A DNA stretch of 64,000 nucleotides, taken from Phoronis australis (lineage: Eukaryota > Animalia > Phoronida). Under the pieces are notes generated by a model. It saw nothing but the letters and a program-made list of their open reading frames with translations. It ran no database searches and was not told the DNA's origin. Positions 3,901 through 62,639 of the stretch are shown piece by piece (the stretch's first letter is position 1; the number at the start of each line of letters is the position of its first letter). Location of the stretch: NCBI GenBank assembly GCA_002633005.1, contig NMRA01000222.1, positions 1 to 64,000 on the forward strand, in the 5' to 3' direction. A program made the position numbers and the translations under genes.

Positions 3901-6900
3901 CTCCACACAATATCATTTTGGATCATATGGAATTGCCTTTTGGAGTTGCTTTTCATGTTCCAAAATGTGCTTTTTACACAATACGTAAAAGAATGTACGT
4001 CATAGATATGATTTTTAAAATAAATTAGTTTGGCAATGAAATGAGTAGAACTAGTATATTAACTTGATAAAGGAAATCTAGTCTTCAGAACACCAAAATG
4101 ATGGAGCAACATATTGATCGGTCGACTCGCCTGAATATTAAAATTTAGAAAAATTAATGACTCAGAAGAGTAGAAAATAGATAAAAACAAACTGATATCT
4201 TACTATGTATATACTCTTAGCATAACTGTTTGTTAAAATGTTTCGAAATCACATTTCTGAAAAAAAAAACTCTACAGGAAAATAGGAAATCTTGATCCCG
4301 TTAAGACATCCTATAAGAAATCAATATTCCTATAGGAATTCCTACAGGATCCTATAGATTATTTTAAATTCGTAAGTGAAAATACTGTAAATATCCTAAA
4401 GCACTGCTCTTGCTTCGCTTTGACTGGTCACTGGCATTGTTCTCGTTGCTTTGAGCACAGAGTGAAATAAATTATCATGCTGTATCATGTTGCCCAATGT
4501 TATGTACGTCTGGTGTCGAGTCGACTCTTAGTTCTGATGTGTGTGTTACCATTACCTCCAGCGCTTATGCAAGTCAGTACAGGCTTTAAAAAGTCCTTTA
4601 TTGGTGTTCTGTGTAATGTACATTACATTCATCCCTGGTCTGTGCTACGTTGTTGTTTTTCAAGCTCCATGGTCAGTGACCACTAAGCTTCGTGTTTACA
4701 CCTCTATCAGTAAGTTCGAGCCTTGTGAGCGACATAATGCTAGCACAGTTATGTAACGCGTTGCCCTTTATTGACTAGCATATATAACTACACTCCGGAG
4801 GCTGACGTGCGTTCCGAAGCGGCAACCTCACTATTGAAAACACAAGATTACGTAAGACATGAGATATCACCGTATTATAAGCGAATCACGTTATCACACC
4901 ACCTGACTAATTCAGACCGTCGTGATAGGCTTTTGTCTACGGAACTCAACTCGGTCAGCATTGTGCCAGACTTGATCGGCAGTGTTACGGTGAGTAGGCC
5001 TATTCGTCAGCGATATTTTTATCGCCAATCGAGTGCCTCTGTGATGCACGGTTGTTGATATCCCTAACATTCATAATATCAACTTATCAACTTTGTTGAA
5101 AACATTTTTTATGAAACTGGTTTTACTTATGCGAACATACGGCTTTCTCATGCGCGTTTTGAAAACGCGGGCTCGGAGCTTTTCCGATATAGGTCCATAG
5201 GTCCGACGAGTTAACAAGCCACAAATTGGAGACAACATGGTTGGAAGCTTTGGTTCAAACGTAGTATAGTATAACGTCGTATGGGAAATGACGAATTTTA
5301 TCGAGTAAAGCGTACACCCATAAACCACGGACCCAACACGCTACATAGCCCAATTTTCCATTTCGATTACAAAGAAAAAAACTCTGGATGTTCATAGGTT
5401 TTTGCAGCACTCAAAAATTTCCGTTTGACTAAAAACAAAAATTGAGGAGCACTGAAGCCTTTTGGTTGGTTAGGTTTGCTTGACACTCTTCTTGCCGAGT
5501 GCAAGTCCGCCGTTCATTTGCCACCGTCCCGTCAATTAACTGAAATATTGATTGCAATGACAGTGCAACTGGTTCCATGTTCTAGCACGAATGTGATTTG
5601 AGTCATGTATTGTAGCAGGTTGTGGGTAATATCATGCATTGTCGTAGATTGAGAGTTTGCCACGGTGTGTCAGGTTTCAAACAAAATGAAACCATAGAAA
5701 TAACGTTAAAAAGCATTGTTCTTTGAGTTGAAATTACCGGAATGAAACAATACACTGACCATAATTCTGAGTGATCTGGCACCAAATTTCTTGCTGGACA
5801 CACAATATTGATTTGACACCATGCTTCCCGTGACAATTACAGGAAACACGGGTGTCACTAAAAAGTAAACAAAGAACACAGAAAAATCATTGTGTCAGTT
5901 TTCTTTTTCTTGTCATCAAGTCAGTAACATAAACGGAGTAACGGTAATTACAAGGACTCGGACTAGCGGCAACTTTGCAGACGCAAAATATTTAGAAATT
6001 TGGTTCGCTGTTTTAGCACTGAATGCTTAAAAACACACTGAAGTCAGACCAATTAGTTCGTTCGGTTCCTCAAATTTAGCCGCAGAATGACATAATAACG
6101 GCAATCGTTTTCATCATACTGTTTTCCAGTGAGGCATTTAATTTTTATGTAATGGTTGTTATTGTCAAGTGCCATCAGAGCTTTTGTAGGACCATAGATA
6201 GGGGGAATGGACCAAAAATTCATTGAAATGTCCCAAGTTAGTGTAGCGAGTGACGGGCTAGCCAGATGAGGCCCAGATCTACATGTACATGTTTGTTTTG
6301 CTGGCCAACCCTCGTTTTGACTTTGGAATGTTAACCACGCGCAAATTTTGAGAATGGCCTACATTGTGTTCACGTTGACTGGACATCGTCACCCCGACAG
6401 ATCGCACAGCATGGACGCATTTTCTGTCTCGTTTTACTTCAGCACCCGGATTCATCTCAGATTCCGAAAATGCCTCCACTCAAATGACAAAATACGTACC
6501 GGGTGAACCTAAGATTTTTTGTCCTTTATGTGGCCCGCCTAACAAGGCCATGGGGGTTCACTAGTAATTGCAGGTTGTTATTGTGGAAAGAAGTTCTTCA
6601 CGTCTCTATTTTTTCATAAAGCAGCTCATCCATGGAAAACGTTCTTTCAATCAAATTGCCACAAGCAGTTGCCTAATAACTGGCAATTTCCGCGTAAGCG
6701 CTCGCCTTTTCGAAAAATGACGTTCTTTGCGCATTTTTCGGCGTGTACCTGGCAAGCTGACCATAATTTCCCCAGATTTCGGTAAAACCACGTACAGTCG
6801 AGTAGCTACCCTAAGAGAACCTGGAAATTCTTGGTAGTAAAAGGGGTTTTACTATTTTATCTTAAGGTGGCCCCTTAAGCATTTTGGCTGTGTTTTAATC

Positions 6901-11127: not shown

Positions 11128-11283
11128 ATGGGCAATACCCCCTCTGAACCGGATGGAGACTCGTATGATCCATCGACGGATCCAGTTGACACTTCAGACA
11201 TTGAAGGACACAACTTTCCTTATGAGAATCTCGTTCTCGAGGGTGGTGGTGTAAAAGCGTGTGCCTACGCTGGTGCATTCGAA
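11128..11283 (+). CDS. Patatin A coding exon 1 (MGNTPS...; glycine-rich oxyanion loop LVLEGGGVKACAYAG)
   Basis: ATG in AAGATGG context after acceptor ttgcag (11118); donor GAA|gtgagt; near-identical in copy B. Confidence 0.9.
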
Positions 11284-14200
11284 GTGAGTGCTAGTGTGTT
11301 TTTTTGTGGATTATTTTGTTTAAAATGTTATGGTTCTTTTATACGCAGCAACAACTGAGAAATGTTAACGAAAATTGTTAGCGTCTGACGTGTCAATTTA
11401 AATTGAGGCTGAGAGAATTACTCACTATAAGCGGCGAGTGAAAAATATCTGTAACTAGGCCAACCGGTAATTAAAGTGTTTAAGTTTTTTCATTTGGTGC
11501 ATATGAACGACACCCAAATTCTGATTTTTTCAAAAACAGATTTTGGACAAAGTCGGTATTCTCAAAAACATCAAACGGATAGCTGGTACATCAGGCGGCG
11601 CCATTGCGGCAACACTTCTTGCTCTCGGCTGTAGTCCGCAGGAGATTTCAACACGGTTCACTCCTTGGGATGAGTTGCTAGGTAAGCGATCCATTCTTAT
11701 TCACCTGTAACACTCACGATTCAATGTGTGTGTGTGTGCAACATCGCCGGAGTTTTCCCAATGGTGTATCAAACTTTGTATCAAGTCTAGTCCGCAAACA
11801 TGTCGCAACCGCAGCCTTTTCGCGCAGTAAGTTGCAGACGTTGTCGTGAGTACCTCCAAACTGCAGTTATCGTGAGCTGTTGTGTTTGCATTAGCTGTAC
11901 GCAATGTTGCCACAAGATTGTACAATACTCGCCGACGATTGACTAATTTTGTTATTCAACGGCTACAGTAATGACTTACTAAAAGCCTGCGACAACAGAA
12001 AGCTAACAAGAAGATTAGGTTAGCATAAAAATGTCAAAATTACTTTTTCTTGTGTATCCGGCTGCCTTAACTGTAAACACCAGAAGATGGTTTTATCTGC
12101 TAAAAACCAGGCGTTCGTTCCGCAGAGGAGAGAAATTTGAGAAAACGCAAGCATACACAAGACTTCGCAAGGTATCGCAGTGGCGGATCTAGGATAGCAT
12201 AAGGGGGGGCAACATGTTGCCTTGGGGAATTGGGCAAAGCGCGATTGTATATGCACATGCCGCCCGAAAGTTGCAGGCGGCCAAGGATGTGCACCTCCTG
12301 TTCGCAAAGTCTATAGTGGACTAAAAAACCGGAACACGGTTGTGTGCGGTCTGCTCCCCCTCATCCGATACTGCTCCTACTTCTTTCTTACTGCCCTCAA
12401 TATTTCCTCACGCTTCGCGTTGTTGCTCTTTCATTTTCCTTGCGGCAGCCAAGGGGGTGGGCCGGTGGGGGGGCGCTTCCCCAAAATCCACCTACGTATC
12501 GCCATGTATTCCAAGCTTCTTTTGCTTGAGAAATTCTCGCGTCAACGGAACTCTACCCTCATATACACAGTGTTGTAAGATTTCAAATCGCAGCCTTTTC
12601 ATTGGTCATTCCTGCAGTCAATCATTTGCTAGTGTAGCACTAACTTGAGCCAACAATGTGACTACAAATAATACGTACACAACAGCTGACGATAACTGCA
12701 GTGGTGGTACACTCAACTACGTCTGCAACTACCTGCGAAAAGGCTGCGGTTACGACGCGCACGCGAAGTAGGCTTAAACCCTCCCACTGAGACTAGTCGC
12801 AGTTTAAGCGATGAGGGAGTAAAGAGTACCTCATGAGAGAGAGAGAGAAAACGCTTTTATTTACATTACATAATAATAATACATTGATTAAAATTTGATT
12901 TCAATTAGGAGGCCTTCTAAAGGTTATTGACCGCTAATAAGAAGGTCCCCTGTACAAGATAAACAAATGGAAATGCAAAAATCAGTAGGAATACTTAAGA
13001 AAACAGTGAATTAGTGCTGAAAACGACCGACAAGCCAGGAACCAAGAAGTAAACTGGCACAGCTCAGGAGATTTTGAGAATACAATTAGATACTGTTACA
13101 TATGAAGCAATTGGAAATATGACAATATGAGGTGACAACCTTGATGGCGATTGTAATGCGATGGATGCGATGAGAACGTTGGTGTTGGTGGTGGGCGTGC
13201 TGTCAACAGTGACAGTGATGGTGGGGTATGGAGGGGGGCCTGTGTGGTGTTAGTGATGGTGGGGTATAGAGGTGGGTCTGTGTGGTGTTAGTGATGGCTG
13301 TGACGCCACGGTGATGTTGAGGAAGAGGATAACGATGATACGGTGGTGGTAGTGTCAGTAACTATAAGGTTGCTGTTAAGGATTTGGTTGGTGGTAGTTG
13401 TGACGGTAGTAATGGAAAGAATGAATGTCATCTTGGTGGTGGCCGTCAGAGTTATCGATGTCGTTGTTGGTGTTGCTCCTGATGGTGACGGTGCAGATAA
13501 TGGAACCCATCATCACCATCAGCAGCAACTTCACCACTAGTAACGCAGGCAAGAATTACCAAGAACCTGCCGTTCGAGGGTTGCACTGTAGGATATGGAG
13601 GCACAATGGCCTACAGTTAGGCCTATTACAGGGTTGGTTGCTGAGACTCACCCAAGTGGAGACGAGTTCTTTATTTGACGTCCTTACCGAGAGTCTGAAA
13701 AAACAAGGTGTTTTGGCGTTGTCAACTCAAAAGCACTACTCATGACAACTGAAACTTAATTCTGCTACAGATTTTTAATCGGCTAATTCACATCGGGTAA
13801 AAATACCGGCACACAAAAATAGGACAAAAACACCAAATTTGACAATTCTCTTCCCAAATTTACCATACTTCCCTGCTAGTGCTAGAAAAAGCTAACAACA
13901 GATTCAGAATGCTCTTTCTCACTATATTCTAAAAATGCGGTCATAGTATGCCCCTTACTTGCTACCTTTTTCGCAATTTCGATCTGTCCGACAGCCACCT
14001 GAAATCGCACCCGGTTTCTGAGTAGGCAGGCGACAGGGGTTGAAAGCAAACGACAGCCATCATGGTGCATGGAAAGTAGGTCACGGCTAAAAAACGTGAC
14101 TTTTCTCATTCGAAGATACAAGTAAATCATTTTTTTTGCAATTGTTGTTCCAACAAATTCCTGAAAGCATCCGCCAAACCTGACACACGATGTATTTAAT

Positions 14201-17200
14201 TTCTAGGGACGTGGTTATAGCCTAACTGTTCAGTGCTACCAATGGAATTTTGTAAGGGGCATCCAAGAAAGTGAATTTCTTGCATATCCCTTAAACATGG
14301 CTTATCATCGGCATGTTTTTCTTTGCTTGTGTTGAGATGGGGTTTCTCTGACCCCTCCTTAATGCGCCTTTGTAGTAAACTACTTTATGGCGAGTTCAAA
14401 GTGTACAAGCATGGAAAAAAATGATTTCCTTGCAGATGCTAGATTCGGTAAAGCCTCCTATCCTTACAACCTGATGAACATATTTGGGTTTAACCCTGGC
14501 GCTAAAGCCCATGCCACAATCGCCAAGCACATTGAAGAATTGTCGGGTGATCCAAATTATACGTTCAAACAGGTACGTAATTATTCTAAGAAAATGACTG
14601 TTAAAATTATATTTCATTCGAGCATTTACCTTCAGTCAAATGCAATCCTGCTGTCCTGATGACTGACCACGCATCGACTCACAGACGACAATCTTTCGCT
14701 TTGTTTTATGGTCTCAAGTAGGCAATTTGTAATTTGAAAAAGCATCACAGGCAATGTCTCTTAAAGTTAGTCAACCAAATGTGCTAGTTGTACTGTTAAG
14801 TTCAGCGAAAAAAAACAACGTATTCTATAACTGGGAAATAGATCTTGGTGTTGATGCATCTCCTGATTGGTGGAGAAAGGTGAAAACTTATTCTTGACAA
14901 TTTCCTAGTGATACCGCAGTGTCAGTTTGCTCCGTGTCAGTCCGTTTACACACTTGAACAACTCGTTCCGTGTCAGCTGATCCGTGTCAACATTGTAAGT
15001 GTAAACGGCACTTTAGAGGTTTCAAATTTAGATATATTTTTGGAAAGAATGAAGTACATGACGTAATTAATCTAATTGTTTGTTTATGAAAAACTCATTA
15101 TTAATGGACAGCGTCTTAAAAACACGGCTTCCAATTTAACATACGTTAAAAGGGAAGTCTTTGAGTATTTCAAAATTTGAAAAATACATATTTTACGATA
15201 ATTTAAAATTCGAAGATGCTAAAAACAAGTGGACCACTACGGTACTGTTATTTTGAGGCAGTTTATTTTTGAGTTGTAAATGACCCCCACCACAAGTGTG
15301 CATGTGCGTATAATTGTGGTTCTAAATGTCTTCCCTTCACTTTCACGTGTATGCAAAGGTATTATGTATAATATTAATAATAATAATAATAATAGTAATA
15401 ATAACAATGACGATGACGGTGACGGTGACAATGACAATGAGAATGAGAATGACAATGATAATATAGAACAATAAGAAGAACTGTCATAAGTAACGTGTCA
15501 AGGTGTTGTACAAATAGAATACATTTGATGAGTCCCCTAGAAATGATTTCTACAAAGAACCACTTTAATAGAGATCGACAAAAACTCATGATTCCCAGAA
15601 ATCAGAAGCACGAATGGTCCCTTGGTATTCGAATGTTTAGTGATGGACCCGCAAATAAGAAAAGACATGCCGTCACATTGGGTCCAAAACGTCAAAATGA
15701 CGTCATGCTACACATTCCTGTTGCTTTTCTTCAGAAAGGCGCTAACTCTGACCGGATATCAATAAGGTTATACACGGTAGTGTTGGCGCAAGAAATAACG
15801 GTAGAGATAATGATGCAACTCGACTGACAAGTACTGATCAGTGCAAGTTCCTTTTTAAAGTCATAAGAACCCGGATATCACCTTCAGTCCCGTGAGTGTC
15901 CAGTGTCTTGAGTCGTTTTCTCATTTAGGTCATCTAATCGTTGGAAACGTCTTGGAAGACGAAGTGAACGAGCCAGGTGAAATTTAATTAGTAAGAAACT
16001 TAACTGAAGATCTCATTCCAAAAATTTCCAATCAATTTTCTGGTGAGACGTCAACTGTTTGAACACATTGTACTACATTCTGATTTGTGTATGCAGCTAT
16101 ACGAAGATCGAGGTACAGAGCTGTGCATTGTCGCTAGTAACATCAATGGCATGACAATTGAGTACTTCCATCCCAAAACCACTCCACATGCTGTGATAGC
16201 AGATACTGTTCGGATGTCCATGAGCATTCCAGGTAAGAATTATGCATTCTGGTGACAGTACCACGCATGCAAACAAGTATGCCTAATCTTATTGAAGTAC
16301 ATGTATACTCTGCTGAGCGGATAACTAAACAGAAATGTGATAATGCAAACTGCCATCAATCGAAACTCTTTATGTAGCTTTGATATGTTCAGATAAATAA
16401 CACAAGTACCTGGGTCCTATTCATCCACATGTAGGCCTACATGAATAGTCCACTCTGCTTAGTGTTCCAGTTCAGTGGAGACTGAGCGCATTCTGCGCGA
16501 ACGCCGGAGGAGGTAAGACAAGACCTTTTAAAGGAGCTTTATGTTTTTAGCATTGTGTCCCTATCAAGATGAAAGTAAAAGGCTTCGACGCTCTGAAAGA
16601 TGGTGAAGGTCGGAACCACTCACCCTCGAACCAGCGCCACCTATGCCGGTGTGACATTAAATTTTGACCCCCAGGGAAAAATGACCCCCGAAACTTTTTC
16701 AACTTTGAAAAATGACCGGGGATCAATTGAACCAAGGCATCGTTTATTATTAGAAAAAATTTGAAACCGGTTTCCTATACGAAATGAAAATATGCTTTTT
16801 GATAGTTTAAAGCAAAATGCCTCTGTACACTGTGTGTTTCACTAGAATGTCACAATTTTACGGTGCTTTCACGCTTAGTTTTAACCACGACTTAAACCAA
16901 GAATTATGTCTTGTCGCAAGTCCCCGTTTAGACTCTGTAAAACTTGTTAAATCACGTTTTAGCGAAAAAGCACCATGATTAGACAGCTTCTTTTCCTATG
17001 TGTATTTCAGTCGTAATGGCACCCTGGAAGGACACGAATGGCAAATCATATTACGTTGATGGCGGAGTTCTGTGTAACTTTCCTATCCACGTGTTTGATG
17101 GTAAGATTTACCGTATATCATGTGCACGTAATTTGGTGATAATAGCCATTCCACGAGAAAATCCAAAAAAATAAAAAATCACTCTAAAGGTCATCTCTCA

Positions 17201-20200
17201 CGTTCAACTTAAACTTTGGATATGTAATCGTGGTGTGGCTCTGATTAAAAAATCACCAAATTTGCTCTTTTTTAGCCTTTTATCTATTTACCGATGGGCC
17301 TTCAAATGTTCACGACGAAAATGACACGTTTTTGCATAGCGAAAACAAACAGCAACTTTCCAATGTCAAAAACAAGTAGATTGCATGCAATGAAAGAAAA
17401 CTCAAAATGCGATTACTAAGCGAGACGTACAGTAAGTGCCCGGTTGCATGAAACAGTCCCAAATAGGGACTCAACTAAGTTCCCTAAATTTACTGCGCAT
17501 TTTTAACTTGTGAAAACATCGATTACCCTTTCTTGTATTGCTTTAGTTTCATTATTAAATCATCTTTTGACTTTGATAAAAATCGAGATTGAACTCTACG
17601 TTGAATTGTCAATATTATCGAAAATATTTAGGAATCTTTTCATGCAACACCCCTTACTTAAAGATTGGGTCCCTATTTATTTTAAATGAACTCGGGGCTC
17701 AGTTTTTAGTTATATTATTAGAAAATGCCATTAATCAAAGAGGAACTCATAAGAAAAGATTTATGGACCTATTTGACACTGTTTCATGCAACCGGCCACT
17801 GGACTCCCATATAAAATTGATACTGATAATTTTGCTGCATTCATCACGTTACAGGGGAGATATATCCGGAGGCACTTTTTGTAGTGTTGAAACTGGGTGT
17901 CACGCGAGTGCTTCTACAAGCTAGTTTGTGGGGTTGCGGACACTGGACGATATGTTTATGGATAGATCTTCAACGATGAATAAATTTAAGATATCTTTCG
18001 AATGGGCTCTTTCCCTTTTTTCAAAAAAGGCTCCATTTGCGCATTCTACACATTTTATCGAATATTTTTTCTAACTTCATTACATTTAAAATGTTTTCAA
18101 GATGAAATGATTAATGAGAATCGACATTTTAGACACCATAATGCTGTCTGACATATCCACACACCGTTTCACCCATTGAACGTTCAAAAGTGACGATGGG
18201 TCAGAGGTTAAATAGGCAAAAACTGCGTGGTGCCAATACCCAAAACAATTGACAATCTTAGAGACAATTTTAAGGCTGACGTGAATAATTCATGTGATAT
18301 TTTAAGGCGAGTTAGCTTTTATTTATAAACAATTCTTTTGAGGTACGATTTCGATACCATGAAGCAGACGAACCAAAATTATTTGTTCTCTTTGAAGGCA
18401 GAAGCCTACATCAAAGGAAAGACATTGATGTCTGAAATGCATAAAGTGAAAATATAGTCGTTTTCAAACATACATGTGCCATCGTTTCCTCGCTGGAATT
18501 GTTTTGGTCAAATTTCAAGAAAGTTCACCAAAGAAAACTAGTTATAGAAAGTGCCACCAGGGGGCAGCAGCAGTAGTCGAATTATCTAGAAGTCGAAATC
18601 GATGGATTCAATCACTATAGAAACATATTTAGCAAAACATATGAAGCCCCTTAATGAGGTTTAAGAGAAACAATTATATACTGACCGTAGGCAAGCACTT
18701 TAAGATGGGCGATGGTATGTCCTTTCTATCGACTCAATGATACTTTAAAACAAAGAGCCCATTTTTACTTTCTAAGTCAGACAGCCAATTGGCGGAAAAT
18801 ATATGAAATCACCAACACCCAGCATATTGGCCCCAGAGCACTTCAAAAATGACAAAATAATCAAAAAACACAAAACTGGGTAAAAATTACCGAATTTTGG
18901 TGATCCAGTGAAGGTTATGAAAACTCCATTGAAATTCAAAGGCTGTTTTCAGATAGAGAGGTTCAATGTTTAGATATTAAACATCTTAAGTCTTTCCCTG
19001 TTATTTGAAGTCTTGTTGAAATAACTTAATCAACTGAACCTTTTTGAACCAAAAATGTGCCACTTTGGGCCAAAATGTTCATAATGCTTTTACTTAAAAA
19101 ATGGCAAGAATCAAATAAAAATTTTGAACATATCTCATCGAGATGACGACCTCACAATTTTTCGAGATCTAAATCGGTGACTCTAGAGTCGACCTTTTGG
19201 TGCTCTCGACGGTGGAATGACAGTTTTAAAATTTGCGCCTAACATGTATAGTCGAAACTAGGCACAAGTCATGCGGCTATATTAGATACTTCAGTAAAGA
19301 CTAGAAGGAAATTTCTAAAATGTAGAATCAGCGAAAACTGGCTTGTCCTTTATAAAGTGGTAGACGTGTGTCCAATTTAGCATCAACTGTTAAATGGAAA
19401 AACAGCCTGTCAAACAGACGCAACCACGAAAACCGAACTAGTTGAGACACGTACCGAGGGAACTGCCACCTGCGCTAATATGCAATACATTTAAGCAGTA
19501 AATCGAGAGGTGGAAATAATTCCGTCATCGAGCCTCTGAATTTCAGTTACGGACCAGCAGACACCAGTTCTGTTTTATAAATCCAGAGGCCCGGGCCTCT
19601 GAGTTCACACACTCGCCGAAAATGTCCCATACATGGTCCCGAACTTCATTCCCGAGGACCAGATTCCAATGTAGTGACTCGAAATTTCGGCTACAGACGA
19701 ACCCATGTAGTCTGGTCCGTTAGATTGTACTTTGATGACGTGTATGGAGAATTTTACGCGCGGTTGTATATACGTTTCTCAAACACACAGAAAAAACATA
19801 AGATATGGTGCCTGTGGCAGCTGTTGTTTTTAGCTTTCACTCCCTTGTAATTCCTTTGAAAAATCGTGCAAAGCCACATAAACTTTTATCTTATCCGTTC
19901 TATATGGGTTAGTTAAAACAAGAGTTCAAAATGCGTCCAATCGGACTCTGGCCAAATTGGAAGTTGAATTCGCGCAGACAATACGAATCTCGTTCCTCGT
20001 CGACATTGAGCAGTTGCTGAAATATCTATGACGACATTTTTTTATTAAAAATCACGAGTTAGAAGAGATTGGTGTGGACTAGTTAATACTAGAAACTACA
20101 TGTAGTCTTTTAAGACTTCTTCCTAGACAATCCTCGTTAACAGCTAATCGAGGAATAGGTCCATATTGCACCCACACGTTATACAACCTGCAAGGAGTTG

Positions 20201-23200
20201 TACGTTGCATTTCATGTAAACGCTATATGTATGACAATATATACAATGTAGGCCTGCTGCTCACAGGAGTTACTTTTTAGGTTGGTTTCTGTCGATGGAC
20301 CCAAAGGATTCATTTTTCCGTCGGCTACCAGAGGGTTATAAGAGTTGGTTCAACACTTTCAACGAAAAAACGTTGGGTATTTGCGTGGTAAGTATAACGA
20401 TTATTATTTCACCCCAGGGCCCGGTCTCTAATCTTTGTACTCGAAACGAACTCGAAACTATTTTTGGCAATTTCTCTACTCCTTTTGTGCTAACTTAAGA
20501 TAAGTGGTTATCAGGCTGTGCTCGAATACATTATAGTTTATGCATAGGAGTTTCTAGTTCAAGTTTGCCCTTGAAGACCCTTATATTCGTGCTACAAACT
20601 CGAGTAAAACCTCGAATTTTCGAGTTCAAACTCGAACTTATTGCTTTAATATTGGGTTTACAATCTGTGAACTAAGGACAAAAAATTATCTACGTAAGTT
20701 ATTGTGTACTCGAGCATAGAATAATAGACACTTATCCTGAGTTCGCCCAAAAGTAGAGTAGAAAATGCCAAACCTAATTTCGAGTTCCATTTCGAGTAAA
20801 AAGATTGGAGACCGGGCCCAGGTTGGCTTCCATTTCTCAGTGATTCTGGCCTGTAAAGCTACAGGTCCGTTTACTTGACAGATCGCTTTCCTTTCTCAAC
20901 AACGTCGAAACGAGTTCGCTAAATCAGTAACAGGCCAAGTATACATGTATCATATACCCGGCGATTCGCATTTTCTGTTCCTGTTCAAGTTGTTCGAGAG
21001 TTTTCAGAATGTAAAATAATGTCCGTTTAAACTTATCCCAACGTTTATCGAGGACAATTCTTTACTGTTTTTTAAGATATTTGAATATGTGTTTAGAACG
21101 AAGGCTTCTGTATCGTTGATTGCCAGCTCGTGTTTTACACGTAGTTCTAGCACTCAGTTTAAATACTGAGAAACACTTTTTGACGACTGTGGGGGGGGGG
21201 GGTCACTAGTCTTCATGTAAGTCCACTGTACACGTGCTAAATTAGAAGAGTGGTCTGTACGAATATTGATTCATTTCAGCACGAGATGGGCGAGGTGGAT
21301 AAAATGTCAATAAGTGGCAGAGGTAAATGTCACGATAAACAAGTTAAGAGACCTGACACGCCACAAGCACGGTAAAATTTCATTTACTACTTCGCTTCAG
21401 TTTTAGTCATCTCAAAATGGCGGCAAAATTCTTCTTAACTTGGAGAGGTCGGTTTGTTTGTTTCTATGAGGCGGATCTTTTTGCCCCCTTCGCCAATGGA
21501 GGGTGGGAGGGGGGATTGGAAGTTGTCTCCCCTCCCGAGCCCCCCTGGTTGCGCGCATGTATTTTACTTGATGTTTCTATAATTACATGACTTGATTGTT
21601 TGTTCTGAGAACACTGTGATTAAGACGAACCGAAAGAGAAATGCTGCATGGCTACCTATGTTAAAGAAACTATGTATACGCAAAAAACCCTTTTGACACC
21701 AAATTTGTGTTTGCAGTGAAAAAGGAAAGATCTGTGACGACCACTTGAAACGTATGGATGACAGATCTAATCTTTGCCAAGCTGTTTATGCCATCCTGAA
21801 AAATGTTGGGAAGTTTGACAAAGACGAGTCTGGCGCTTTGAACAAAGAGGAGTTGCTGGCTTCATTTCACAGTGTAAGTATGGAAATGCAAACATCTTAG
21901 AAATGGGCGAGACCAAAAGATACGTGCTTAGCCAGCCTCTTAAATGAACGAAAGCTAAGCGGGTGGGACATTTGTAAATGTAATCAATTTCTGGGAATTA
22001 AATCGCAGCTTTAATTCGTTGTGAAGTATGTTATCGCCCTCTGCACAGTGTTTTCCCGGGAGACAAGCTGTGTCGATGTTGACTGCATTTATTGTTGCGC
22101 TACATACGGTTCAGTAGGGCCTATGCAGCATGCCTATATGGAGCCGAGGGCGGGAATGAATTCCACAACACACCAGCTCTTTTAGAATCAGGCCAAAAAA
22201 ACTGCATGGTACACTGCTCGGTTTTATCTGTTCATGGTTGCTTCAACCGTACCCTCAGAGCACACGATACGACTTATCATAACTTTGCTTACGCAGGGAG
22301 ACCAGAAATTGGAAGCTGCCTACAAAACTGTGTTTGGAGACAACACTATACCGGAGGAAATTCTGGAACATGTGAATGCCGGGGAAGAGGTAGTCCAAGT
22401 TAATTTCATACGTCCACAATGCTTTGCTGTTTTCGACTTTGTAGCACTTTTGAAGTGATTCGTGTATTAAAAATTACACAACACACAAGCGGGAGACCGT
22501 CACTAGCTGACATTGAATGGCAGCATAGCCATAATAATTTCATACTTGCTATGAGATTAAGCCACGCTGCTGTCATTTGCCAACTCGAGATATTACGTTT
22601 TCAGAATTACTAGTTTGTACATATTTCAAGACCTGATTGTTCGTTTCCTCTCCTACTCGACTGTAACACTGTATTTGGTTCCGGTCCCTCATTGGCTCAG
22701 AGTGAGTACTCATGTAGACTTATTAGTTTTGAAAACCTATGGTTGTACTTACGGTGTATTCCTGACTTGTCGTTTGTTTTTTCAGTTTGATTTTGAAATG
22801 TTCGCCAAATACGTGGAGAATCACATTGGCATCTCAATGTTTGAGCTCAAAGAAAGCGTCAGTGCCCTACCCGTGTCAAATTTCACGGAGTTCATGTCGG
22901 CGCTCGTGAACACGTGGCAAAACGGGACGGCTGACAGATTTGTCTCAGTAAGTATACACGAAAGATAAAATTTTTCACGATTTCCATGTAATGATTTAAT
23001 TAAACGGTCTGTGAGCATGATATACAGAGCGATTTCGAGTGCTGCTGCGTCAAACGTCTCTCCTACGCACAGTGCCCGACTCACCATTCAGGTACTGGCT
23101 ACTGATTGGAGCCCAGTGCAAATTAGGGGTCCCATCGTACTTGCAGAGCTATTGAAAGCCTGTTGGAACAGGGGGTAATCCCGATGGCTGACGTAAACAA

Positions 23201-26200
23201 ACTAAGCTTTGGGACCTGCACGAAATTTGAACCCTTGCCTCGTCGCTACAGGTGCCTGTCGGAAGTGTTGACTACTTGGCACTGGGGGAGGGGTTGGGGG
23301 CAATACGAAAATTATTGGTACAGGGAACCGTAATGACTAAGGCCCCAAACGTTATAGCTTGGGTTCCCAGAGGAACATTGATCTGGCATGGTAGAATGGC
23401 CTACTCGATATTCTCCTGGTGACGCTAATGACTGGCCTCTTTTGACATCTGTTCAGTGAGAGCAGAACTCATTTCTTCAGCAAGGGGGCGTTCGTGTGAC
23501 GAGGGACACATATGATTGCTATACGTCTTTAGGTACATTTTCTACTAACGTGTGCAACTGAAAAAAATACCGGTATGTGGAAAAATAAAAAGTAGTTAGG
23601 ATTGCAAAAATTGTTGGAATTGGACTGTTAAAGTGGAAGGCAACCGTTTCCTGTGCCATTTTTGGTTAAATTGCGATTTTCTGGTTTTCCTTAATAAAAG
23701 TTCAAGGTATTATCCCCCAGATTCTAAGTTTAATGCATGCGTCAAGTACTCCGGAAGTGATCATGTTCGTGGCCCGAATCATTCCCTGTCATCGCTGTTT
23801 AAATACATTTGAGAGTATGTTTGTTATCGGATAGTCATTGTCAAGGTGAGATTGGAACAAGACAGACCGCTATTAGCTGTTCTCAGACTCTTGCTAAATA
23901 TGTTTGGAAGGATTTGCGTACCGGAATACAAGCATCATGAGCTATCGAAGAGCATAGGAGTTAGTTTTCACCGATTACTTGTAAACGACGATTAGCCGGG
24001 GTGAGATAGCCGCGGATTAAGCGGGGAAACTATCCCGTGTGCGGCAAATTTCTATAACCGTCGCATTACGTTGCAGAGATCATGAAGGTGCCTACTAAAC
24101 TTGTTCTGATAGGATACTTACCTTCTATCCTCCGTCGCCACCTATTAGTAAATGTTTTTGAAACGTGAAGCGTCGAGAGCTGCAGCCACTGGCTGTTGGT
24201 GTCACCTGTGCACGTGAACAATTACCTGTTCGTGACTCGTGTTTTTGTGGTTGCCAACTCTAGCTATTTCCCGTAAATAGCTGAATTCTACTTAACTGGT
24301 TTCTTGTTCAATCTTGGATTGTCAGAGGAATACTCGTCGAAGGCAAATAATTGCGGCATTATTTGTAAAATAATATACAACCAACAGAACCCTGTGAGAA
24401 TTTAGTAAATTTGGCCGGAAACTTATCTAGATTAAACGTGGCAATTTAATCAAAAAGAAGCTAAAATGACTGCTTTCACCTTTATTGTAAGTAGCAGAAC
24501 GCCTCTTTCATAAATTTATTGATTGTGATTGTTCGAATATTCAAATATCAGGTGTTACAAATCATGTTTGATTACTGTGCCAGGTTGCAAAAACAGCTCC
24601 AAATAGGGGCTCGACTAAGTTATCAAAATGTTTGGGTGTTTGTTTCGTTCTTTACTCCCAGATTTTTATATTTTTATCGTTTTACCTTATTACGAGCTCG
24701 TGACATTTTCTAATGATATAACTAAAACTGGCCCCTTAATGTAGTCATAATAATCAGGGGCTTAGTACTTAAATTAGGGGCGTTGCATGAAAAGCTCTCG
24801 ACTCCTTACTTTCAATAATAATAAGAATTAAACGTAGGGTTCACTTTCGATTTGTATCAAAGCCAAAAACTGACAATCAGTGGTTTCACAAGCACCAAAA
24901 ATACTCGTTAGATTTAGGGAACTTAAGTGAGTCCCTATTTGGGTCTGTATCATGCCACCGGGTGTTGATGCATATGTTAAAATATGCGAACCTCATCAAC
25001 ACTGGGCACCAATTCACAAAGTCACTTTTGGTATCTAATGACGTATCGGAAGAATTCACGGTTAGTTAAAATGGAGTTTCCGTGAGCTTTTTGATGGAAC
25101 AGTAGTGTTCGGCTGCTTATTTGAAGTTAGTTTGTCATTTAAAGAGATAATAAACCCGCCTTCCGTCTCAAAAACAATTTAATTTAGACCTGTTGTCGTT
25201 TAAAATTGTTCTCAAATTGTTCAAGATAGTGAAAAGCGGCGTGATTTATGGAAATGAAGAAACGAAAGTGTGTTGTATATTGCTCGACTCCACACTGAGG
25301 CTCTTCAAGCTGACTTGTTATTCTGTCTCACAGAATAAGGAACTGCCAGTTCTTTGGAAATCAGACTGAAAATCACTTCACTTTTGAGTAAGGGTGAAGT
25401 TGAGATGAATTCCGCTTTCTGCATATTTTCGTCCGGGGACAACGCTTTTCTGTTTTGTGTAAATTAGTGGAGAATGAAGCTATATGCCACGATAAGATTG
25501 CACGTCAAACGGTTCACTTTTATAGAGCAATGGTGAATATCAAATCAACGTCCAGTGACCTTCACCTTGAGACCATGGGAACATCTTGTGGGAAGGTAAC
25601 AATTGAGAACACTGACATTCAGACTTCCAGCAAATAATTTTTACGGGGAGCTTAATTATATTTTACACGGTATAAGCAAACTGACTGTTCTCTGATGCCA
25701 AGTGAGCCATTCAAAATTTGCATTGTGGGATCCGGAAACTACCGTAATATCTTCATACACTGCCTTATCTTTACTACGTTAATGCGACTGCTTCATTGAT
25801 TTAGGAGCGTGATCCCGGGAGAACAATAAGCATATACACGGACTACATTGGATCGCTGGACATCAACATGGAACAACTTGATCTCGAATTCTTGAAACGG
25901 GTAAGTTGACGAGTCCCACATCCTACACGTTTCCAGTGGCAATGGAACTCAGTGTGCCGCTGACCAGTTTTTCATTTCTCATATTTTCCCCAAGTACACT
26001 TCAATGAAGGAAAATCGTTACCAACAAAAGATGATTGTATTGCATTTTCAGGAAAGTTCACCATTACTCCAAATTAAATTTGGTCACAACCACCTGCAAT
26101 GTTTTGGCCGGAGTTTTGTAATCTGTTGTAGTTCATGTTTAAGTGATTTGAGAGTTTATGGTCAACTAAATGAAAACAAAGGATATCGGTTTACAACGAC

Positions 26201-26581
26201 ACCCAGCCACCTACTTAAAACAACTGCATATGCGCGTTGTGGCAGTACCTTGCGAGTTGGGCGAGACCTGTCATTCTCCGGAATTCATCTGGCATGTCAG
26301 AAGCAAAATCAATGTCCCAGAATCCATGAGTGGATCATGGGGCGAGCGGTATGCCGCAAAGGTTACCCTTAGGAATATGAGCCCCCCCCCTCTTCGAAAC
26401 ATCCTAAGTACCTTGGTGGAACGGGTTGTATGCACTGAGGAGCTGCGAGATTCAATACAAAAGAATGTTTTCTTTGTATAGTAATTGTTGATAAATCTGA
26501 GTATTAGTTATGTTTTTTTTTGTCTTACAGCAAGGTCGTGTCGCCGCAGCCAATTTTCTGAAGCTGGGAGTCAAACACTGA
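11128..26581 (+). CDS. Patatin-like phospholipase with EF-hand insert, copy A (12 coding exons, 1419 nt, 472 aa)
   Basis: join(11128..11283,11540..11681,14436..14572,16097..16232,17011..17100,20281..20387,21280..21371,21717..21873,22297..22389,22786..22947,25805..25900,26531..26581). All introns are GT-AG with compatible phases and there is no internal stop. Motifs: GGGVKA, GTSGG, RMSMSIP, DGG, EF loop DKDESGALNKEE. Confidence 0.92.
11540..11681 (+). CDS. Patatin A coding exon 2 (catalytic Ser motif RIAGTSGGAIAA)
   Basis: aacag|ATT TTG GAC...CTA G|gtaagc; GxSxG nucleophile elbow. Confidence 0.92.
11783..12776. mobile_element. Non-autonomous TIR element in intron 2 of copy A, with nested MITE fragments
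   Basis: ~110-bp imperfect inverted repeats (accgcagccttttcgc...ctgcagttatcgt versus acgataactgcag...gcgaaaaggctgcggt); nested cagtggcggatctagg terminus at ~12178. Confidence 0.65.
14436..14572 (+). CDS. Patatin A coding exon 3 (DARFGK...GDPNYTFKQ)
   Basis: tgcag|AT...CAG|gtacgt; phase matches exon 2; conserved in copy B. Confidence 0.9.
15370..15462. repeat. (AAT)n / (GACAAT)n microsatellite
   Basis: Direct reading of the sequence. Confidence 0.9.
16097..16232 (+). CDS. Patatin A coding exon 4 (LYEDRG...YFHPKTTP...RMSMSIP)
   Basis: tgcag|CTA...CCA G|gtaag; RMSMSIP is a typical patatin motif. Confidence 0.92.
17011..17100 (+). CDS. Patatin A coding exon 5 (catalytic Asp motif YVDGGVLCNFPI)
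   Basis: ttcag|TC GTA...GAT G|gtaag; DGG motif. Confidence 0.92.
17438..17797. mobile_element. MITE family with GCCCGGTTGCATGAAACAGT termini (PIF/Harbinger-like)
   Basis: Inverted termini; further copies at ~7384-7750, 24579-24962 and a fragment at ~61560-61640. Confidence 0.7.
20281..20387 (+). CDS. Patatin A coding exon 6 (GWFLSMDPKDSFFRRL...TLGICV)
   Basis: tttag|GT TGG...GTG|gtaagt; conserved in copy B. Confidence 0.9.
20418..20818. mobile_element. PIF/Harbinger-type MITE with CAG target-site duplication in intron 6 of copy A
   Basis: cag|ggcccggtctc...gagaccgggcc|cag; long imperfect TIRs; absent from the equivalent intron of copy B. Confidence 0.85.
21280..21371 (+). CDS. Patatin A coding exon 7 (HEMGEVDK...RPDTPQAR)
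   Basis: ttcag|CAC...CG|gtaaaa; same length in copy B. Confidence 0.87.
21717..21873 (+). CDS. Patatin A coding exon 8 (EF-hand, FDKDESGALNKEEL)
   Basis: tgcag|T GAA...AGT|gtaagt; canonical 12-residue EF loop D-x-D-x-S-G-x-L-x-x-x-E. Confidence 0.9.
22297..22389 (+). CDS. Patatin A coding exon 9 (GDQKLEAAYKTVFG...NAGEE)
   Basis: cgcag|GGA...GAG|gtagtc; conserved in copy B. Confidence 0.87.
22786..22947 (+). CDS. Patatin A coding exon 10 (FDFEMFAKY...RFVS)
   Basis: ttcag|TTT...TCA|gtaagt; conserved in copy B. Confidence 0.88.
23632..24481. mobile_element. Probable Kolobok-like non-autonomous element
   Basis: ttaa|agtggaaggca ... tgctttcacct|ttat imperfect short TIRs; absent from copy B intron 10. 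Confidence 0.45.
24579..24962. mobile_element. MITE, same family as 17438-17797
   Basis: ggttgcaaaaacagctccaaataggg ... ccctatttgggtctgtatcatgccacc inverted ends. Confidence 0.65.
25805..25900 (+). CDS. Patatin A coding exon 11 (ERDPGRTISIYTDYIGSLD...FLKR)
   Basis: tttag|GAG...CGG|gtaagt; conserved in copy B. Confidence 0.9.
26531..26581 (+). CDS. Patatin A coding exon 12 (QGRVAAANFLKLGVKH*)
   Basis: tacag|CAA...TGA; conserved in copy B together with its 3' UTR. Confidence 0.88.
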   Translation, partial: QGRVAAANFLKLGVKH

Positions 26582-46927: not shown

Positions 46928-47083
46928 ATGGGCAATACCCTCTCTGAACCGAATGGAGACTCGTATGATCCATCGACGGATCCAGTTGACACGTCAGACA
47001 TTGAAGGACACCACTTTCCTTATGAGAATCTCGTTCTCGAGGGTGGTGGTGTCAAAGCGTGTGCCTACGCTGGTGCATTCGAA
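46928..47083 (+). CDS. Patatin B coding exon 1 (MGNTLS...GGGVKACAYAGAFE)
   Basis: 5 nt differences from copy A in 156 nt; donor GAA|gtgagt. Confidence 0.9.
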
Positions 47084-62000: not shown

Positions 62001-62639
62001 ACTTTTCTTTCTTCCGTTGTTTTCCTATTTTCCATCACATACTCTTCATTGAAAGAAAATCGTTACCAACAAACCCTGGTTGCAACCATTTTCAAGAAAG
62101 TCCATCTTACCGGTAACTCCGAATTCGGCCACAACCGCTTAAAACACAGCGTTCAGTATAATACTCCGATGGAGGAGTCAGCAATATTTTGGCCTAAGTT
62201 GTGATATGTGTTGCATACAATGTTTAAGTGATTTGAGAGTTGATGGTAAACTAAATGAAAACAAAGGATGTATGTTACAATAAGACCCAGGCATGGCGAT
62301 AGTACCTTGCCAGGTGGACGAGACCTGTCATTCTCAGCCATTCGTTTGGCATGTTAGAAGCATAGGCAATATTGCAAAGTGCATGAGCGAATCTTGGGGT
62401 GAGAGTCATGCCACGAAGGTTTTCCGTTAGGAGTATGAGCACCCTCTCTTTGCAACATCCTAAATCCCCTCATTGAACGGGTTGTTCGCACTCAGGAGCA
62501 GCGAGTACCCAATGCAAACGCCATGTTTTCTTTTGCATGCTATTTGATGATAAATCTATTTTTATTTGTTCTGTTTTTTGTCTTACAGCAGGGTCGACTG
62601 GCCGCAGTCAATTTTCTGAAGCTGGGAGTCAAACACTGA
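46928..62639 (+). CDS. Patatin-like phospholipase with EF-hand insert, copy B (tandem paralog; exon 2 truncated in this assembly)
   Basis: Exons 46928..47083, 47347..~47453 (truncated), 49963..50099, 51876..52011, 53947..54036, 55849..55955, 56478..56569, 56866..57022, 60700..60792, 61147..61308, 61826..61921, 62589..62639. All except exon 2 have the same lengths and phases as copy A and no stops. Confidence 0.85.
47347..47453 (+). CDS. Patatin B coding exon 2, partial (GTSGG retained; last ~35 nt and donor missing)
   Basis: aacag|GTT TTG GAG...CCG CAG NAG AT, then homology to copy A is lost. Confidence 0.75.
49030..49430. repeat. 38-bp G-rich minisatellite in intron 2 (about 2 units in copy A at 13220-13300, more in copy B)
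   Basis: Unit gtgtggtgttagtgatggtggggtatagaggtgggtct. Confidence 0.85.
49963..50099 (+). CDS. Patatin B coding exon 3
   Basis: tgcag|AT GCT AGA...CAG|gtacgt. Confidence 0.88.
50407..51221. mobile_element. Kolobok-like non-autonomous element in intron 3 of copy B
   Basis: agcggta ... taccgct|ttaa termini; a related right end occurs at ~15520-15570. Confidence 0.5.
51876..52011 (+). CDS. Patatin B coding exon 4 (RMSMSIP)
   Basis: tgcag|CTA...CCA G|gtaag. Confidence 0.9.
53947..54036 (+). CDS. Patatin B coding exon 5 (YVDGG)
   Basis: ttcag|TT GTT...GAT G|gtaag. Confidence 0.9.
55849..55955 (+). CDS. Patatin B coding exon 6
   Basis: tttag|GT TGG TAT...GTG|gtaaat. Confidence 0.88.
56478..56569 (+). 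CDS. Patatin B coding exon 7
   Basis: ttcag|CAC GAG ACG...CG|gtaaaa. Confidence 0.86.
56866..57022 (+). CDS. Patatin B coding exon 8 (EF-hand FDKDGSGALRKEEW)
   Basis: tgcag|T GAA...AGT|gtaagt. Confidence 0.88.
59365..59800. mobile_element. Foldback MITE (Tc1/mariner-like, TA target site) with ~180-bp inverted arms
   Basis: ta|taaggtacctaaact...agtttaggtaccttg|ta; the arms are nearly perfect reverse complements. Confidence 0.85.
59973..60030 (-). mobile_element. Degenerate tRNA-derived SINE-like fragment
   Basis: Minus strand reads agcattagactgacaatctagagacctgtagttcgattccca (anticodon-like stem-loop plus B-box). Confidence 0.4.
60700..60792 (+). CDS. Patatin B coding exon 9
   Basis: cgcag|GGA GAC CGG...GAG|gtagtc. 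Confidence 0.86.
61147..61308 (+). CDS. Patatin B coding exon 10
   Basis: ttcag|TTT GAT...TCG|gtaagt. Confidence 0.87.
61826..61921 (+). CDS. Patatin B coding exon 11
   Basis: tttag|GAG CAT...CGG|gtatgt. Confidence 0.88.
62589..62639 (+). CDS. Patatin B coding exon 12 (QGRLAAVNFLKLGVKH*)
   Basis: tacag|CAG...TGA. Confidence 0.87.
   Translation, partial: QGRLAAVNFLKLGVKH

What the first reader, a model, noticed from the sequence alone, without database searches (positions are those of the whole stretch)
11128..26581. Animal ExoU/VipD-like patatin phospholipase with a myristoylation start and a built-in EF-hand: candidate Ca2+-gated membrane phospholipase
Seen in sequence: a clean 472-aa spliced frame with the GGGVK oxyanion loop, GTSGG Ser, RMSMSIP, YVDGG Asp, an EF loop, and a C-terminal RTISIYTDY...QGR.AA..FL segment. 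Established: this motif style resembles bacterial ExoU/VipD-type patatins (CDD Pat_ExoU_VipD_like) more than the vertebrate PNPLA1-9 enzymes, which are Ca2+-independent and lack EF-hands. Bacterial patatins include host-activated toxins (ExoU, VipD) and the ligand-activated CBASS effector CapV. Inference: a lipid-anchored, Ca2+-regulated patatin would be an uncharacterised lipid-signalling or membrane-lytic (possibly immune) effector of invertebrates.
Basis: partly seen in the sequence, partly recalled or inferred. Interest (0 to 1): 0.85.

Follow-up and report, generated by a model that had tools for sequence, protein, structure and literature searches.

The report
Calcium-sensing patatin lipase, bacteria to amphioxus
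This is a real, spliced invertebrate gene for a lipid-cutting enzyme with a predicted calcium-binding module built into its switch region, a design shared by many invertebrates and a few free-living bacteria and described in no paper we found, so it is likely a calcium-controlled lipase rather than a toxin or immune weapon.

Summary
Twelve exons give a stop-free 472-aa frame; RNA reads show 10 of 11 introns as joints, and the eleventh in 2 reads.

The gene is not a one-off. It belongs to a large, unnamed patatin subfamily found from sponges to amphioxus (870 relatives), with protist-like members and full-length copies at 59 bacterial loci. These proteins carry an EF-hand pair, not one loop. 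It lies between strands 5 and 6, inside the 'regulatory segment' that gates VipD and PNPLA9. In this protein EF1 is canonical and EF2 is degenerate; most animal relatives show the reverse. Gly2 is kept in 36 of 60 animal-side sequences against 2 of 32 bacterial-side ones.

Ca2+ regulation is plausible but untested. The lytic or immune reading has no support: no ExoU/VipD effector domains, and no CBASS neighbours in 20 bacterial loci. Invertebrate members of the ExoU/VipD-like family were noted in print in 2016; none of 10 paper searches found the EF-hand subfamily. Verdict: new variant of a known kind, interest 0.5.

The parts
11128..11283 (+). Coding exon 1 (aa 1-52): Met-Gly start with Ser at 6 (predicted myristoylation site, acidic tail, no Cys or basic second anchor); oxyanion loop GGGVK at 11242-11256
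   Evidence: joint 11283->11540 in X1 (5 reads) and X2 (4)
11540..11681 (+). Exon 2 (aa 53-100): nucleophile elbow GTSGG, catalytic Ser70 at 11591-11593
   Evidence: Pfam Patatin E 2.7e-7; Ser kept in 61 of 62 and 35 of 35 relatives
14436..14572 (+). Exon 3 (aa 100-145)
   Evidence: downstream joint in X1 (5 reads) and X2 (8); upstream joint only 2 reads (table 5c)
16097..16232 (+). Exon 4 (aa 146-191): family signature Y-x-H-x-K-T-T-P and RMSMSIP (patatin block III)
   Evidence: joint 16232->17011 in X1 (8) and X2 (2)
17011..17100 (+). Exon 5 (aa 191-221): YVDGG, catalytic Asp207 at 17058-17060
   Evidence: joints
20281..20387 (+). Exon 6 (aa 221-256): end of the D-segment and strand 5
   Evidence: secondary structure mapped from the sponge-homologue model; joints
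21280..21371 (+). Exon 7 (aa 257-287): start of the regulatory-segment insert
   Evidence: joints on both sides in X1 and X2
21717..21873 (+). Exon 8 (aa 287-339): long helix and EF-hand 1; canonical 12-residue loop at 21817-21852 (aa 321-332: D, D, S, G, L, N, E at positions 1, 3, 5, 6, 8, 9, 12)
22297..22389 (+). Exon 9 (aa 340-370): linker and first half of EF-hand 2
   Evidence: joints
22786..22947 (+). Exon 10 (aa 371-424): second half of EF-hand 2 (degenerate: about 2 residues short, Met in place of the position-12 Glu) and the long helix back to the core
25805..25900 (+). Exon 11 (aa 425-456): strand 6 and the conserved loop after it (aa 436-446), which lines up with VipD's regulatory loop or lid
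   Evidence: (a weak third segment of the alignment)
26531..26581 (+). Exon 12 (aa 457-472 and stop): C-terminal patatin helix; the protein ends here, with no effector-type C-terminal domain
   Evidence: joint in X1 (12) and X2 (9)
46928..62639 (+). Tandem paralogue with the same 12-exon layout, 90.6% identical in coding DNA; homology in exon 2 stops near an N at 47449, and about 35 nt of that exon are not in the assembly
5709..5949 (+). Candidate non-coding first exon with a GT donor after 5943, conserved upstream of both copies (paralogue donor after 31697); no in-frame Met
   Evidence: not tested with reads

Best explanation
The gene encodes a cytosolic patatin-type Ser-Asp lipid hydrolase that is likely tethered to membranes by an N-terminal myristate and likely switched on when Ca2+ binds an EF-hand module built into its regulatory segment. 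SHOWN: spliced transcription; intact catalytic motifs (Ser70, Asp207, Gly-rich loop); membership of one family of patatins with an EF-hand-pair insert. PREDICTED (model of a sponge homologue, about 34% identical): a patatin fold with the EF pair looped out between strand 5 and strand 6, just before the conserved loop that matches VipD's lid. INFERRED: Ca2+ binding (here at EF1 only, with EF2 as a structural partner) shifts the long flanking helices and opens or orders the lid. The enzyme then cuts acyl chains from phospholipids or lysophospholipids at the inner face of membranes and releases fatty acids or lysolipids after a Ca2+ signal. In effect it would carry its own calmodulin half instead of needing Rab5, ubiquitin or calmodulin in trans. 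The direction (activation rather than inhibition) and the substrate are guesses from VipD-type lid opening. The family is older than animals or moved between domains; it is not a borrowed pathogen toxin.
For: Transcription and frame. Catalytic Ser and Asp kept in 61 of 62 de-replicated animal-side and 35 of 35 bacterial-side sequences. An EF-hand pattern occurs in 87 of 116 animal-side and 109 of 118 bacterial-side full-length proteins, and in 0 of 14 short outgroup patatins. At least one loop keeps all four key ligands in 53 of 62 and 34 of 35. AlphaFold model of P0091 with a 75-row alignment: pLDDT 89.8, pTM 0.87. It aligns to VipD at Z 25.1 (rmsd 2.8, 261 residues), PlpD 24.6, CapV 23.8, PNPLA9 20.7 and ExoU 18.5. 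Residues 337-412 align to polcalcin and calmodulin lobes at Z 6-7, which is weak on its own. The insert lies between strands 5 and 6 (window aa 257-430), the segment that a 2026 review names as the regulatory element of VipD and PNPLA9 (PMC12871566, passages). Gly2 in 36 of 60 animal-side Met-start sequences (Gly frequency at positions 3-40: 3.9%) against 2 of 32 bacterial-side ones; 15 of the 36 add a Cys and 19 a basic patch.
Against: No Ca2+ binding, lipase activity, localisation or myristoylation was measured. The window's own protein was not folded; the geometry comes from a homologue. EF2, the better conserved hand in the family (51 of 62 complete), keeps only 1 of 4 key ligands here. 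The paralogue's EF1 has Arg at position 9 and fails the pattern. Several relatives have lost both hands, among them the nearest named one in the tree (Haliotis P0281, support 87/92; loop scores 3 and 2 of 4), so the EF module can be lost. The protein departs from 13 positions that are at least 85% conserved in the family, including Gly44->Ala next to the oxyanion loop. Its N-terminus has no second membrane signal (0 K/R in residues 3-20, 8 D/E in 3-28). The only patatin precedent for Ca2+ control read here, PNPLA9 with calmodulin, is inhibitory. Bacterial cytosolic Ca2+ signalling is a less obvious reason to keep the module (inference).
Confidence: 0.5

Rival explanations
1. A housekeeping lipid-remodelling or storage-lipid lipase in which the EF-hand pair is a structural scaffold or a protein-binding surface, so that Ca2+ does not set activity (at least in this species' copy).
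For: EF2 is degenerate here and the paralogue's EF1 is atypical. Some relatives lack intact loops. Bacterial neighbours are mostly housekeeping genes; the commonest is a GH3 glycosidase, in 15 of 59 loci. One of 120 bacterial-side hits is fused to acyl-CoA dehydrogenase domains (P0190). Patatins include triacylglycerol lipases and transacylases (PMC12871566 passages; own knowledge).
Against: Ca2+ ligands are kept over a very long distance: 53 of 62 and 34 of 35 sequences keep a complete loop. Where EF2 decayed in this lineage, EF1 is fully canonical, whereas only 9 of 62 animal-side relatives have a complete EF1. That fits selection to keep one working site.
Confidence: 0.27
2. Ca2+ binding inhibits the enzyme, as Ca2+/calmodulin inhibits PNPLA9; the lipase would run at resting Ca2+ or after store depletion.
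For: PNPLA9 is inhibited by calmodulin in the presence of Ca2+ (PMC12871566). The EF pair resembles a calmodulin lobe.
Against: The core is closer to VipD, ExoU and PlpD than to PNPLA9 (24% against 13% identity in the structural alignment). Those enzymes are opened by their activators.
Confidence: 0.13
3. A Ca2+-triggered membrane-lytic or immune effector, comparable to ExoU or the CBASS phospholipases.
For: Fold kinship with VipD, ExoU, CapV and CapE. Recent tandem duplication here (dN 0.080, dS 0.181, ratio about 0.44). Several paralogues per species are named (Trichoplax, Patiria, Physella). A clear defence gene lies within 3 kb in 2 of 20 bacterial loci (PglW in L025, AbiEi in L048) and a weak match in a third. 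An LRR gene follows directly in at least two Myxococcota loci (L001, L006).
Against: No cyclic-nucleotide synthase or CBASS gene among 108 neighbour ORFs of 20 loci. No neighbour family is shared across phyla beyond generic GTPase and ABC genes and Myxococcota-type loci. Seven animal members score 15-34 bits against the CBASS lipase cut-off of 200, and 63-109 against the VpdC cut-off of 1000. The protein ends at the C-terminal patatin helix and lacks bridging, membrane-localisation or Rab-binding domains. Fold kinship with CapV equals that with PlpD and plant patatin (Z 21-25), so it says nothing on function.
Confidence: 0.1

Closest known systems
CDD Pat_ExoU_VipD_like family (accession cd07207 recalled), including its invertebrate members
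   Same: Same patatin core. [quoted passage not shown] Databases label relatives 'YqhO-like' or 'R571'.
   Different: In the section and passages read, that paper does not mention an EF-hand pair, a Gly2 start, or the bacterial and protist-like members of the same long design. The short members of the wider group (290-384 aa) have no EF pattern (0 of 14) and form a separate clade.
Legionella VipD (PDB 4akf, 4kyi) and VpdC
   Same: Best sequence hit (E 1e-25 with the family profile) and best structural hit (Z 25.1, tied with PlpD and CapV within about 1). Strand 6 and the lid loop line up weakly.
   Different: VipD is a secreted effector switched on by host Rab5 through an extra C-terminal domain. 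This family has no such domain and carries an EF-hand pair inside the regulatory segment instead. VpdC profile scores are 63-109 against a cut-off of 1000.
Pseudomonas ExoU (PDB 3tu3, 4akx, 4qmk)
   Same: Patatin blocks I-IV; E 2e-22 with the family profile; Z 18.5.
   Different: No chaperone-binding, ubiquitin-binding bridging or PI(4,5)P2-binding domain. It is an intron-containing host gene, not an injected toxin.
CBASS phospholipases CapV and CapE (PDB 9kej, 8zr9, 9iom)
   Same: Patatin fold, Z 21-24; ligand-controlled patatins.
   Different: 17-19% identity; far under the NCBIfam cut-off; no CD-NTase neighbour; the proposed ligand is Ca2+, not a cyclic dinucleotide.
PNPLA9 / iPLA2-beta (PDB 6aun)
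   Same: Animal patatin phospholipase under Ca2+ control through calmodulin; its regulatory segment governs activity.
   Different: 13% identity; has ankyrin repeats; calmodulin acts in trans and inhibits; no EF-hand of its own.
cPLA2 (PDB 1cjy)
   Same: Related Ser-Asp fold (Z 14.6); Ca2+-controlled phospholipase of animals.
   Different: cPLA2 uses a C2 domain to move to membranes (own knowledge). Here an EF-hand pair sits inside the catalytic domain and the anchor is a predicted lipid.

Membership tests
Patatin-like phospholipases (PF01734) | Gly-rich oxyanion loop with Lys/Arg, G-x-S-x-G nucleophile, conserved Pro block, D-G-G aspartate (blocks I-IV as given in PMC5127104) | tested here: met
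   All four in order; exon 2 alone passes the Pfam cut-off; Gly44->Ala is a small departure
Patatin-like phospholipases (PF01734) | Patatin alpha/beta fold with strands 5 and 6 and the C-terminal helix | tested here: met
   On a homologue only (P0091, about 34% identical to the window protein):
Patatin-like phospholipases (PF01734) | Lipid acyl hydrolase activity | not testable with these tools
   needs an assay
CDD Pat_ExoU_VipD_like | Best CDD profile match | not testable with these tools
   CDD is not held. Proxies agree: VipD and ExoU are the top PDB sequence hits, and the family is reported to hold invertebrate proteins
ExoU / VipD / VpdC effectors proper | Extra activator-binding and membrane-targeting domains beyond the patatin core | tested here: not met
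   The protein ends at the C-terminal patatin helix; VpdC profile 63-109 bits against a cut-off of 1000 in 7 of 7 relatives
CBASS phospholipases (CapV, CapE) | Score above the NF041079 cut-off | tested here: not met
   15-34 bits against 200 in 7 of 7 animal relatives
CBASS phospholipases (CapV, CapE) | Operon with a CD-NTase | tested here: not met
   None among 108 ORFs within 3 kb of 20 of the 59 bacterial loci; the other 39 loci were only clustered
Vertebrate PNPLA1-9 | Orthology: grouping with a PNPLA in a tree | tested here: inconclusive
   No PNPLA sequence was in the trees. Indirect only: no PNPLA among the 9 PDB sequence hits; PNPLA9 aligns at 13% identity; the family groups with bacterial and protist-like proteins
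EF-hand Ca2+-binding proteins | Canonical 12-residue loop (ligands at 1, 3, 5, 9, 12) in a helix-loop-helix pair | tested here: met
   EF1 meets the recalled PROSITE-type pattern (55 of 20,000 shuffles); pair seen in the homologue model; EF2 does not meet it; Pfam score under the cut-off
EF-hand Ca2+-binding proteins | Measured Ca2+ binding | not testable with these tools
   needs ITC or similar
N-myristoylated proteins | Gly2 after the true start Met, with a small residue at 6 | tested here: inconclusive
   Pattern met, strong Kozak-type context, family enrichment 36 of 60. The ATG follows a splice acceptor and the upstream exon was not seen in reads; the candidate exon is non-coding

The most novel reading that the evidence does not exclude
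An undescribed class of self-contained Ca2+-switched phospholipases. A calmodulin-like EF-hand pair was grafted into the patatin regulatory segment before animals arose, kept from sponges to amphioxus with an added myristoyl anchor, and shared by cross-domain transfer with predatory myxobacteria and freshwater actinobacteria. It would be a further way to couple Ca2+ to lipid signalling (beside cPLA2's C2 domain, secreted PLA2's catalytic Ca2+ and calmodulin on iPLA2-beta), and a candidate source of Ca2+-triggered fatty-acid release in marine invertebrates.
Probability: 0.35. Interest if true: 0.75.

Novelty: new variant of a known kind. Interest (0 to 1): 0.5.

Why it matters
Patatin lipases are defined in textbooks as Ca2+-independent and are switched on by partner proteins or nucleotides. 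A subfamily with its own EF-hand pair inside the regulatory segment would be a built-in Ca2+ switch, and a clean model for how that segment opens the active site. It is present in many invertebrate phyla and was seen in no named vertebrate, insect or nematode row, so model-organism work may simply have missed it. The intron-free homologue in the culturable, harmless myxobacterium Cystobacter fuscus makes the Ca2+ question directly testable. If Ca2+ has no effect, it is an ordinary uncharacterised lipase family.

Tried and rejected
No whole genome is held for this window, so copy number, other neighbours and the upstream exon could not be checked genome-wide. No RNA holder was listed by the word index; three raw RNA runs and one contig set of the same species label were laid instead.

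Viral contigs: 7 pattern matches, none confirmed. Phage records: 1 weak, partial hit. Plasmids: 43 records, all partial (at most 49% of the query among the 30 listed), i.e. short patatins. No viral copy of the long design was found, but these scans are pattern-limited.

The single-sequence fold of the nearest named relative P0281 failed (pLDDT 38.8) and was not used. The careful mixture-model tree of 61 rows did not finish in two calls; its quick version and a 36-row LG+G4 tree were used. The first FastTree was mis-rooted on a family fragment and served only to choose rows.

Direction of transfer is unresolved. The best tree puts bacteria beside protist-like rows (93/89), but eukaryotes as one clade are not rejected (p-AU 0.073).

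Considered and rejected: that the second copy is an assembly haplotype (coding identity 90.6%, introns 75-83% and of different lengths); that the RNA reads come only from the paralogue (joints between exons 7-10 hold at 96% likeness, where the copies are only 84-90% alike); bacterial contamination (11 spliced introns).

A Pfam scan of 80 other open frames found only a weak THAP match. Earlier scan notes: nothing on this family; one search gave one loosely parallel case. Ten paper searches listed no paper on an EF-hand patatin family. All were seen as listings only, except PMC5127104 and PMC12871566. Supplements were not searched, subscription papers are mostly missing, and omics tables may list these genes. 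No complex prediction was run.


Full report
1. Observation. Twelve exons between 11128 and 26581 join to 1419 nt, 472 codons and a stop, with GT-AG at all 11 introns. Two RNA-seq runs of the same species label (X1, X2; about a fifth of each read) show joints for introns 1, 3, 5, 6, 7, 8, 9 and 11 and for 4 and 10. Intron 2 is seen only in 2 reads with four differing letters (table 5c). Expression is low (exon-containing bins reach depths of only a few reads) and sample-dependent: X3 gives one joint with 2 reads, X4 none. No whole genome is held. The ATG has a strong context but lies 9 nt after a splice acceptor that is conserved in both gene copies. A conserved GT donor after 5943 marks a candidate first exon with no in-frame Met; this was not tested with reads.

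2. A second copy. tblastn of the family against the window finds a tandem paralogue at 46928-62639 with the same exon layout. Coding identity is 1249 of 1378 nt; 340 codons are the same, 45 differ silently and 72 change the residue (dN 0.080, dS 0.181). There is no inner stop. Introns are 75-83% alike in patches. About 35 nt at the end of its exon 2 are missing next to a single N at 47449, so it may be intact or broken. Its expression was not tested.

3. The family in animals. Exon 4 found 6 relatives among 8 candidates. One of them (Trichoplax P0003) found 870 proteins at E <= 1e-10 among 7,914 candidates, of which 120 were listed. Named rows come from sponges, placozoans, cnidarians, molluscs, bryozoans, echinoderms, hemichordates and amphioxus. 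Cluster look-ups of 30 further proteins added nemerteans, an annelid, the protist Papus ankaliazontas and an MMETSP transcript. No named row was a vertebrate, arthropod or nematode; since 750 hits were not shown, this does not show absence. Names are 'uncharacterized', 'YqhO-like', 'R571' or 'calmodulin'. The window protein is 33-37% identical to its best relatives over about 460 residues. The ESM Atlas holds automatic clusters with Patatin plus EF-hand families in both eukaryotes and bacteria.

4. The family in bacteria. A scan of 185,579 species genomes with two short family patterns gave 59 confirmed loci of 65 matches: 46 Actinomycetota, 8 Myxococcota and 5 Pseudomonadota by record title (several metagenome-bin labels look doubtful). 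One is the complete Cystobacter fuscus chromosome. Most encode a single ORF of about 490 aa with the catalytic motifs and one or two EF loops. The Cystobacter protein found 420 relatives at E <= 1e-10; all named rows among the 120 listed are bacterial. Bacterial-side proteins are up to 34% identical to the window protein over its full length. The design is therefore not an animal invention alone.

5. Tree. On 248 core columns without the insert, 36 rows (LG+G4): the long EF-type proteins form one group against 9 short patatins (100/98), bacteria are one clade (100/99) beside five protist-like rows (93/89; 2 named, 3 unnamed), and animals group at 85/96. The window protein lies among the animals on a long branch, nearest to a Haliotis protein (87/92). 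Holding eukaryotes together costs 5.2 log units and is not rejected (p-AU 0.073). A 61-row quick mixture-model tree has the same shape. Rows were chosen by hand from about 400 proteins; fragments and near-copies were left out. No PNPLA, ExoU, VipD or CapV sequence was in the trees. Donor and direction are open.

6. Anatomy. AlphaFold on the sponge homologue P0091 with a 75-row alignment gave pLDDT 89.8 and pTM 0.87. It matches VipD (Z 25.1, rmsd 2.8, 261 aligned), PlpD (24.6), CapV (23.8), CapE (23.2), plant patatin (22.4), PNPLA9 (20.7) and ExoU (18.5); residues 337-412 match two-hand EF lobes at Z 6-7. Mapped to the window protein, strand 5 is aa 251-257, the EF pair aa 312-386, strand 6 aa 431-435 and the last helix aa 448-472. 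[quoted passage not shown] In VipD its loop Thr376-Pro386 closes the active site until Rab5 binds; in PNPLA9 it mediates dimer formation and membrane binding. The family profile aligns its conserved strand-6 and loop motif to that VipD region, though this third segment is not significant alone. The EF pair thus sits where this enzyme class is controlled.

7. EF-hands and N-terminus. After de-replication at 70% identity (62 of 116 animal-side and 35 of 118 bacterial-side proteins; both sets include unnamed rows), EF2 is complete in 51 of 62 and 26 of 35, EF1 in 9 of 62 and 15 of 35, and at least one in 53 of 62 and 34 of 35. The window protein is reversed: EF1 scores 4 of 4 and EF2 1 of 4, with a short loop and Met for the final Glu. 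The paralogue keeps the four key EF1 ligands but has Arg at position 9. Gly2 occurs in 36 of 60 animal-side Met-start proteins (33 fit the recalled myristoylation pattern; 15 add Cys, 19 a basic patch) and in 2 of 32 bacterial-side ones (0 fit). The window protein fits the pattern but has an acidic tail and no second anchor, so its membrane binding would be weak or regulated.

8. Effector or immune role. Seven animal relatives fall far below the NCBIfam cut-offs for VpdC, the CBASS lipase, DS2 lipase and RssA and give only modest PADLOC phospholipase hits. Among 108 ORFs flanking 20 bacterial loci, Pfam and PADLOC show housekeeping genes, no CD-NTase, PglW once, AbiEi once and one weak nucleotidyltransferase match; the other PADLOC hits are generic kinase, ABC, methyltransferase or hydrolase domains. 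Clustering 776 neighbour ORFs of all 59 loci shows lineage-limited synteny only. This gives no support for a defence role; it does not exclude one in animals.

9. What is known. PMC5127104 (one section and passages read) already states that the Pat_ExoU_VipD_like family includes sea urchin, sea anemone, Trichoplax and lancelet proteins. Ten full-text searches listed nothing on an EF-hand-bearing patatin subfamily; the library lacks most subscription papers and supplements were not searched.

10. Verdict. A real, expressed member of an uncharacterised, widely spread patatin subfamily with an EF-hand pair in the regulatory segment. It works most likely as a Ca2+-activated, membrane-tethered lipid hydrolase (0.5). 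Rivals: a Ca2+-indifferent housekeeping lipase (0.27), a Ca2+-inhibited one (0.13) and a lytic or immune effector (0.1). It is a patatin and probably falls in the CDD ExoU/VipD-like family, but it is not an ExoU, VipD or CapV. Novelty: new variant of a known kind.

Noticed in passing
window 46928-62639 (+): Tandem paralogue, 90.6% identical in coding DNA, dN/dS about 0.44; the end of exon 2 is missing beside a single N at 47449. The duplicated unit seems to reach about 6 kb upstream of gene 1's ATG (5338-11130 is colinear with 29163-46930).
   Followed up: partly
window 16162, 20309, 22329, 21337-21338, 22311: All RNA reads at these exon positions differ from the assembly; at 16162, 20309 and 22329 they carry the paralogue's letter. 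This may be allelic variation, gene conversion or assembly error.
   Followed up: partly
window 10620-10938 and 20414-20823: Highly transcribed interspersed repeats (depth several hundred in all RNA runs); the second sits in intron 6 and has inverted ends.
   Followed up: no
window 17435-17751 and 24640-24875: Related repeat pieces in opposite orientation in introns 5 and 10, giving 'opposite strand' joints in the reads.
   Followed up: no
window 35438-35686 (-): Weak THAP-domain match (E 5.6e-4, under the cut-off) between the two gene copies; perhaps a P-element-type remnant.
   Followed up: no
L001:4515-5735, L006:3909-5018: In Myxococcota-type loci a leucine-rich-repeat gene follows the EF-hand patatin on the same strand; a shared downstream neighbour is seen in 5-6 such loci.
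   Followed up: partly
P0365, P0367, P0371, P0372, P0381: Several short, EF-less outgroup patatins from unnamed contigs also start Met-Gly, so the lipid-anchor start may be older than the EF insert or come from protists or giant viruses.
   Followed up: no
P0190: One 800-aa bacterial-side protein joins the patatin to acyl-CoA dehydrogenase domains; single case on a short contig.
   Followed up: no
L025:3-2660 (-), L048:6632-7447 (+): PglW (BREX type 2) and AbiEi genes lie near the patatin in one locus each.
   Followed up: partly
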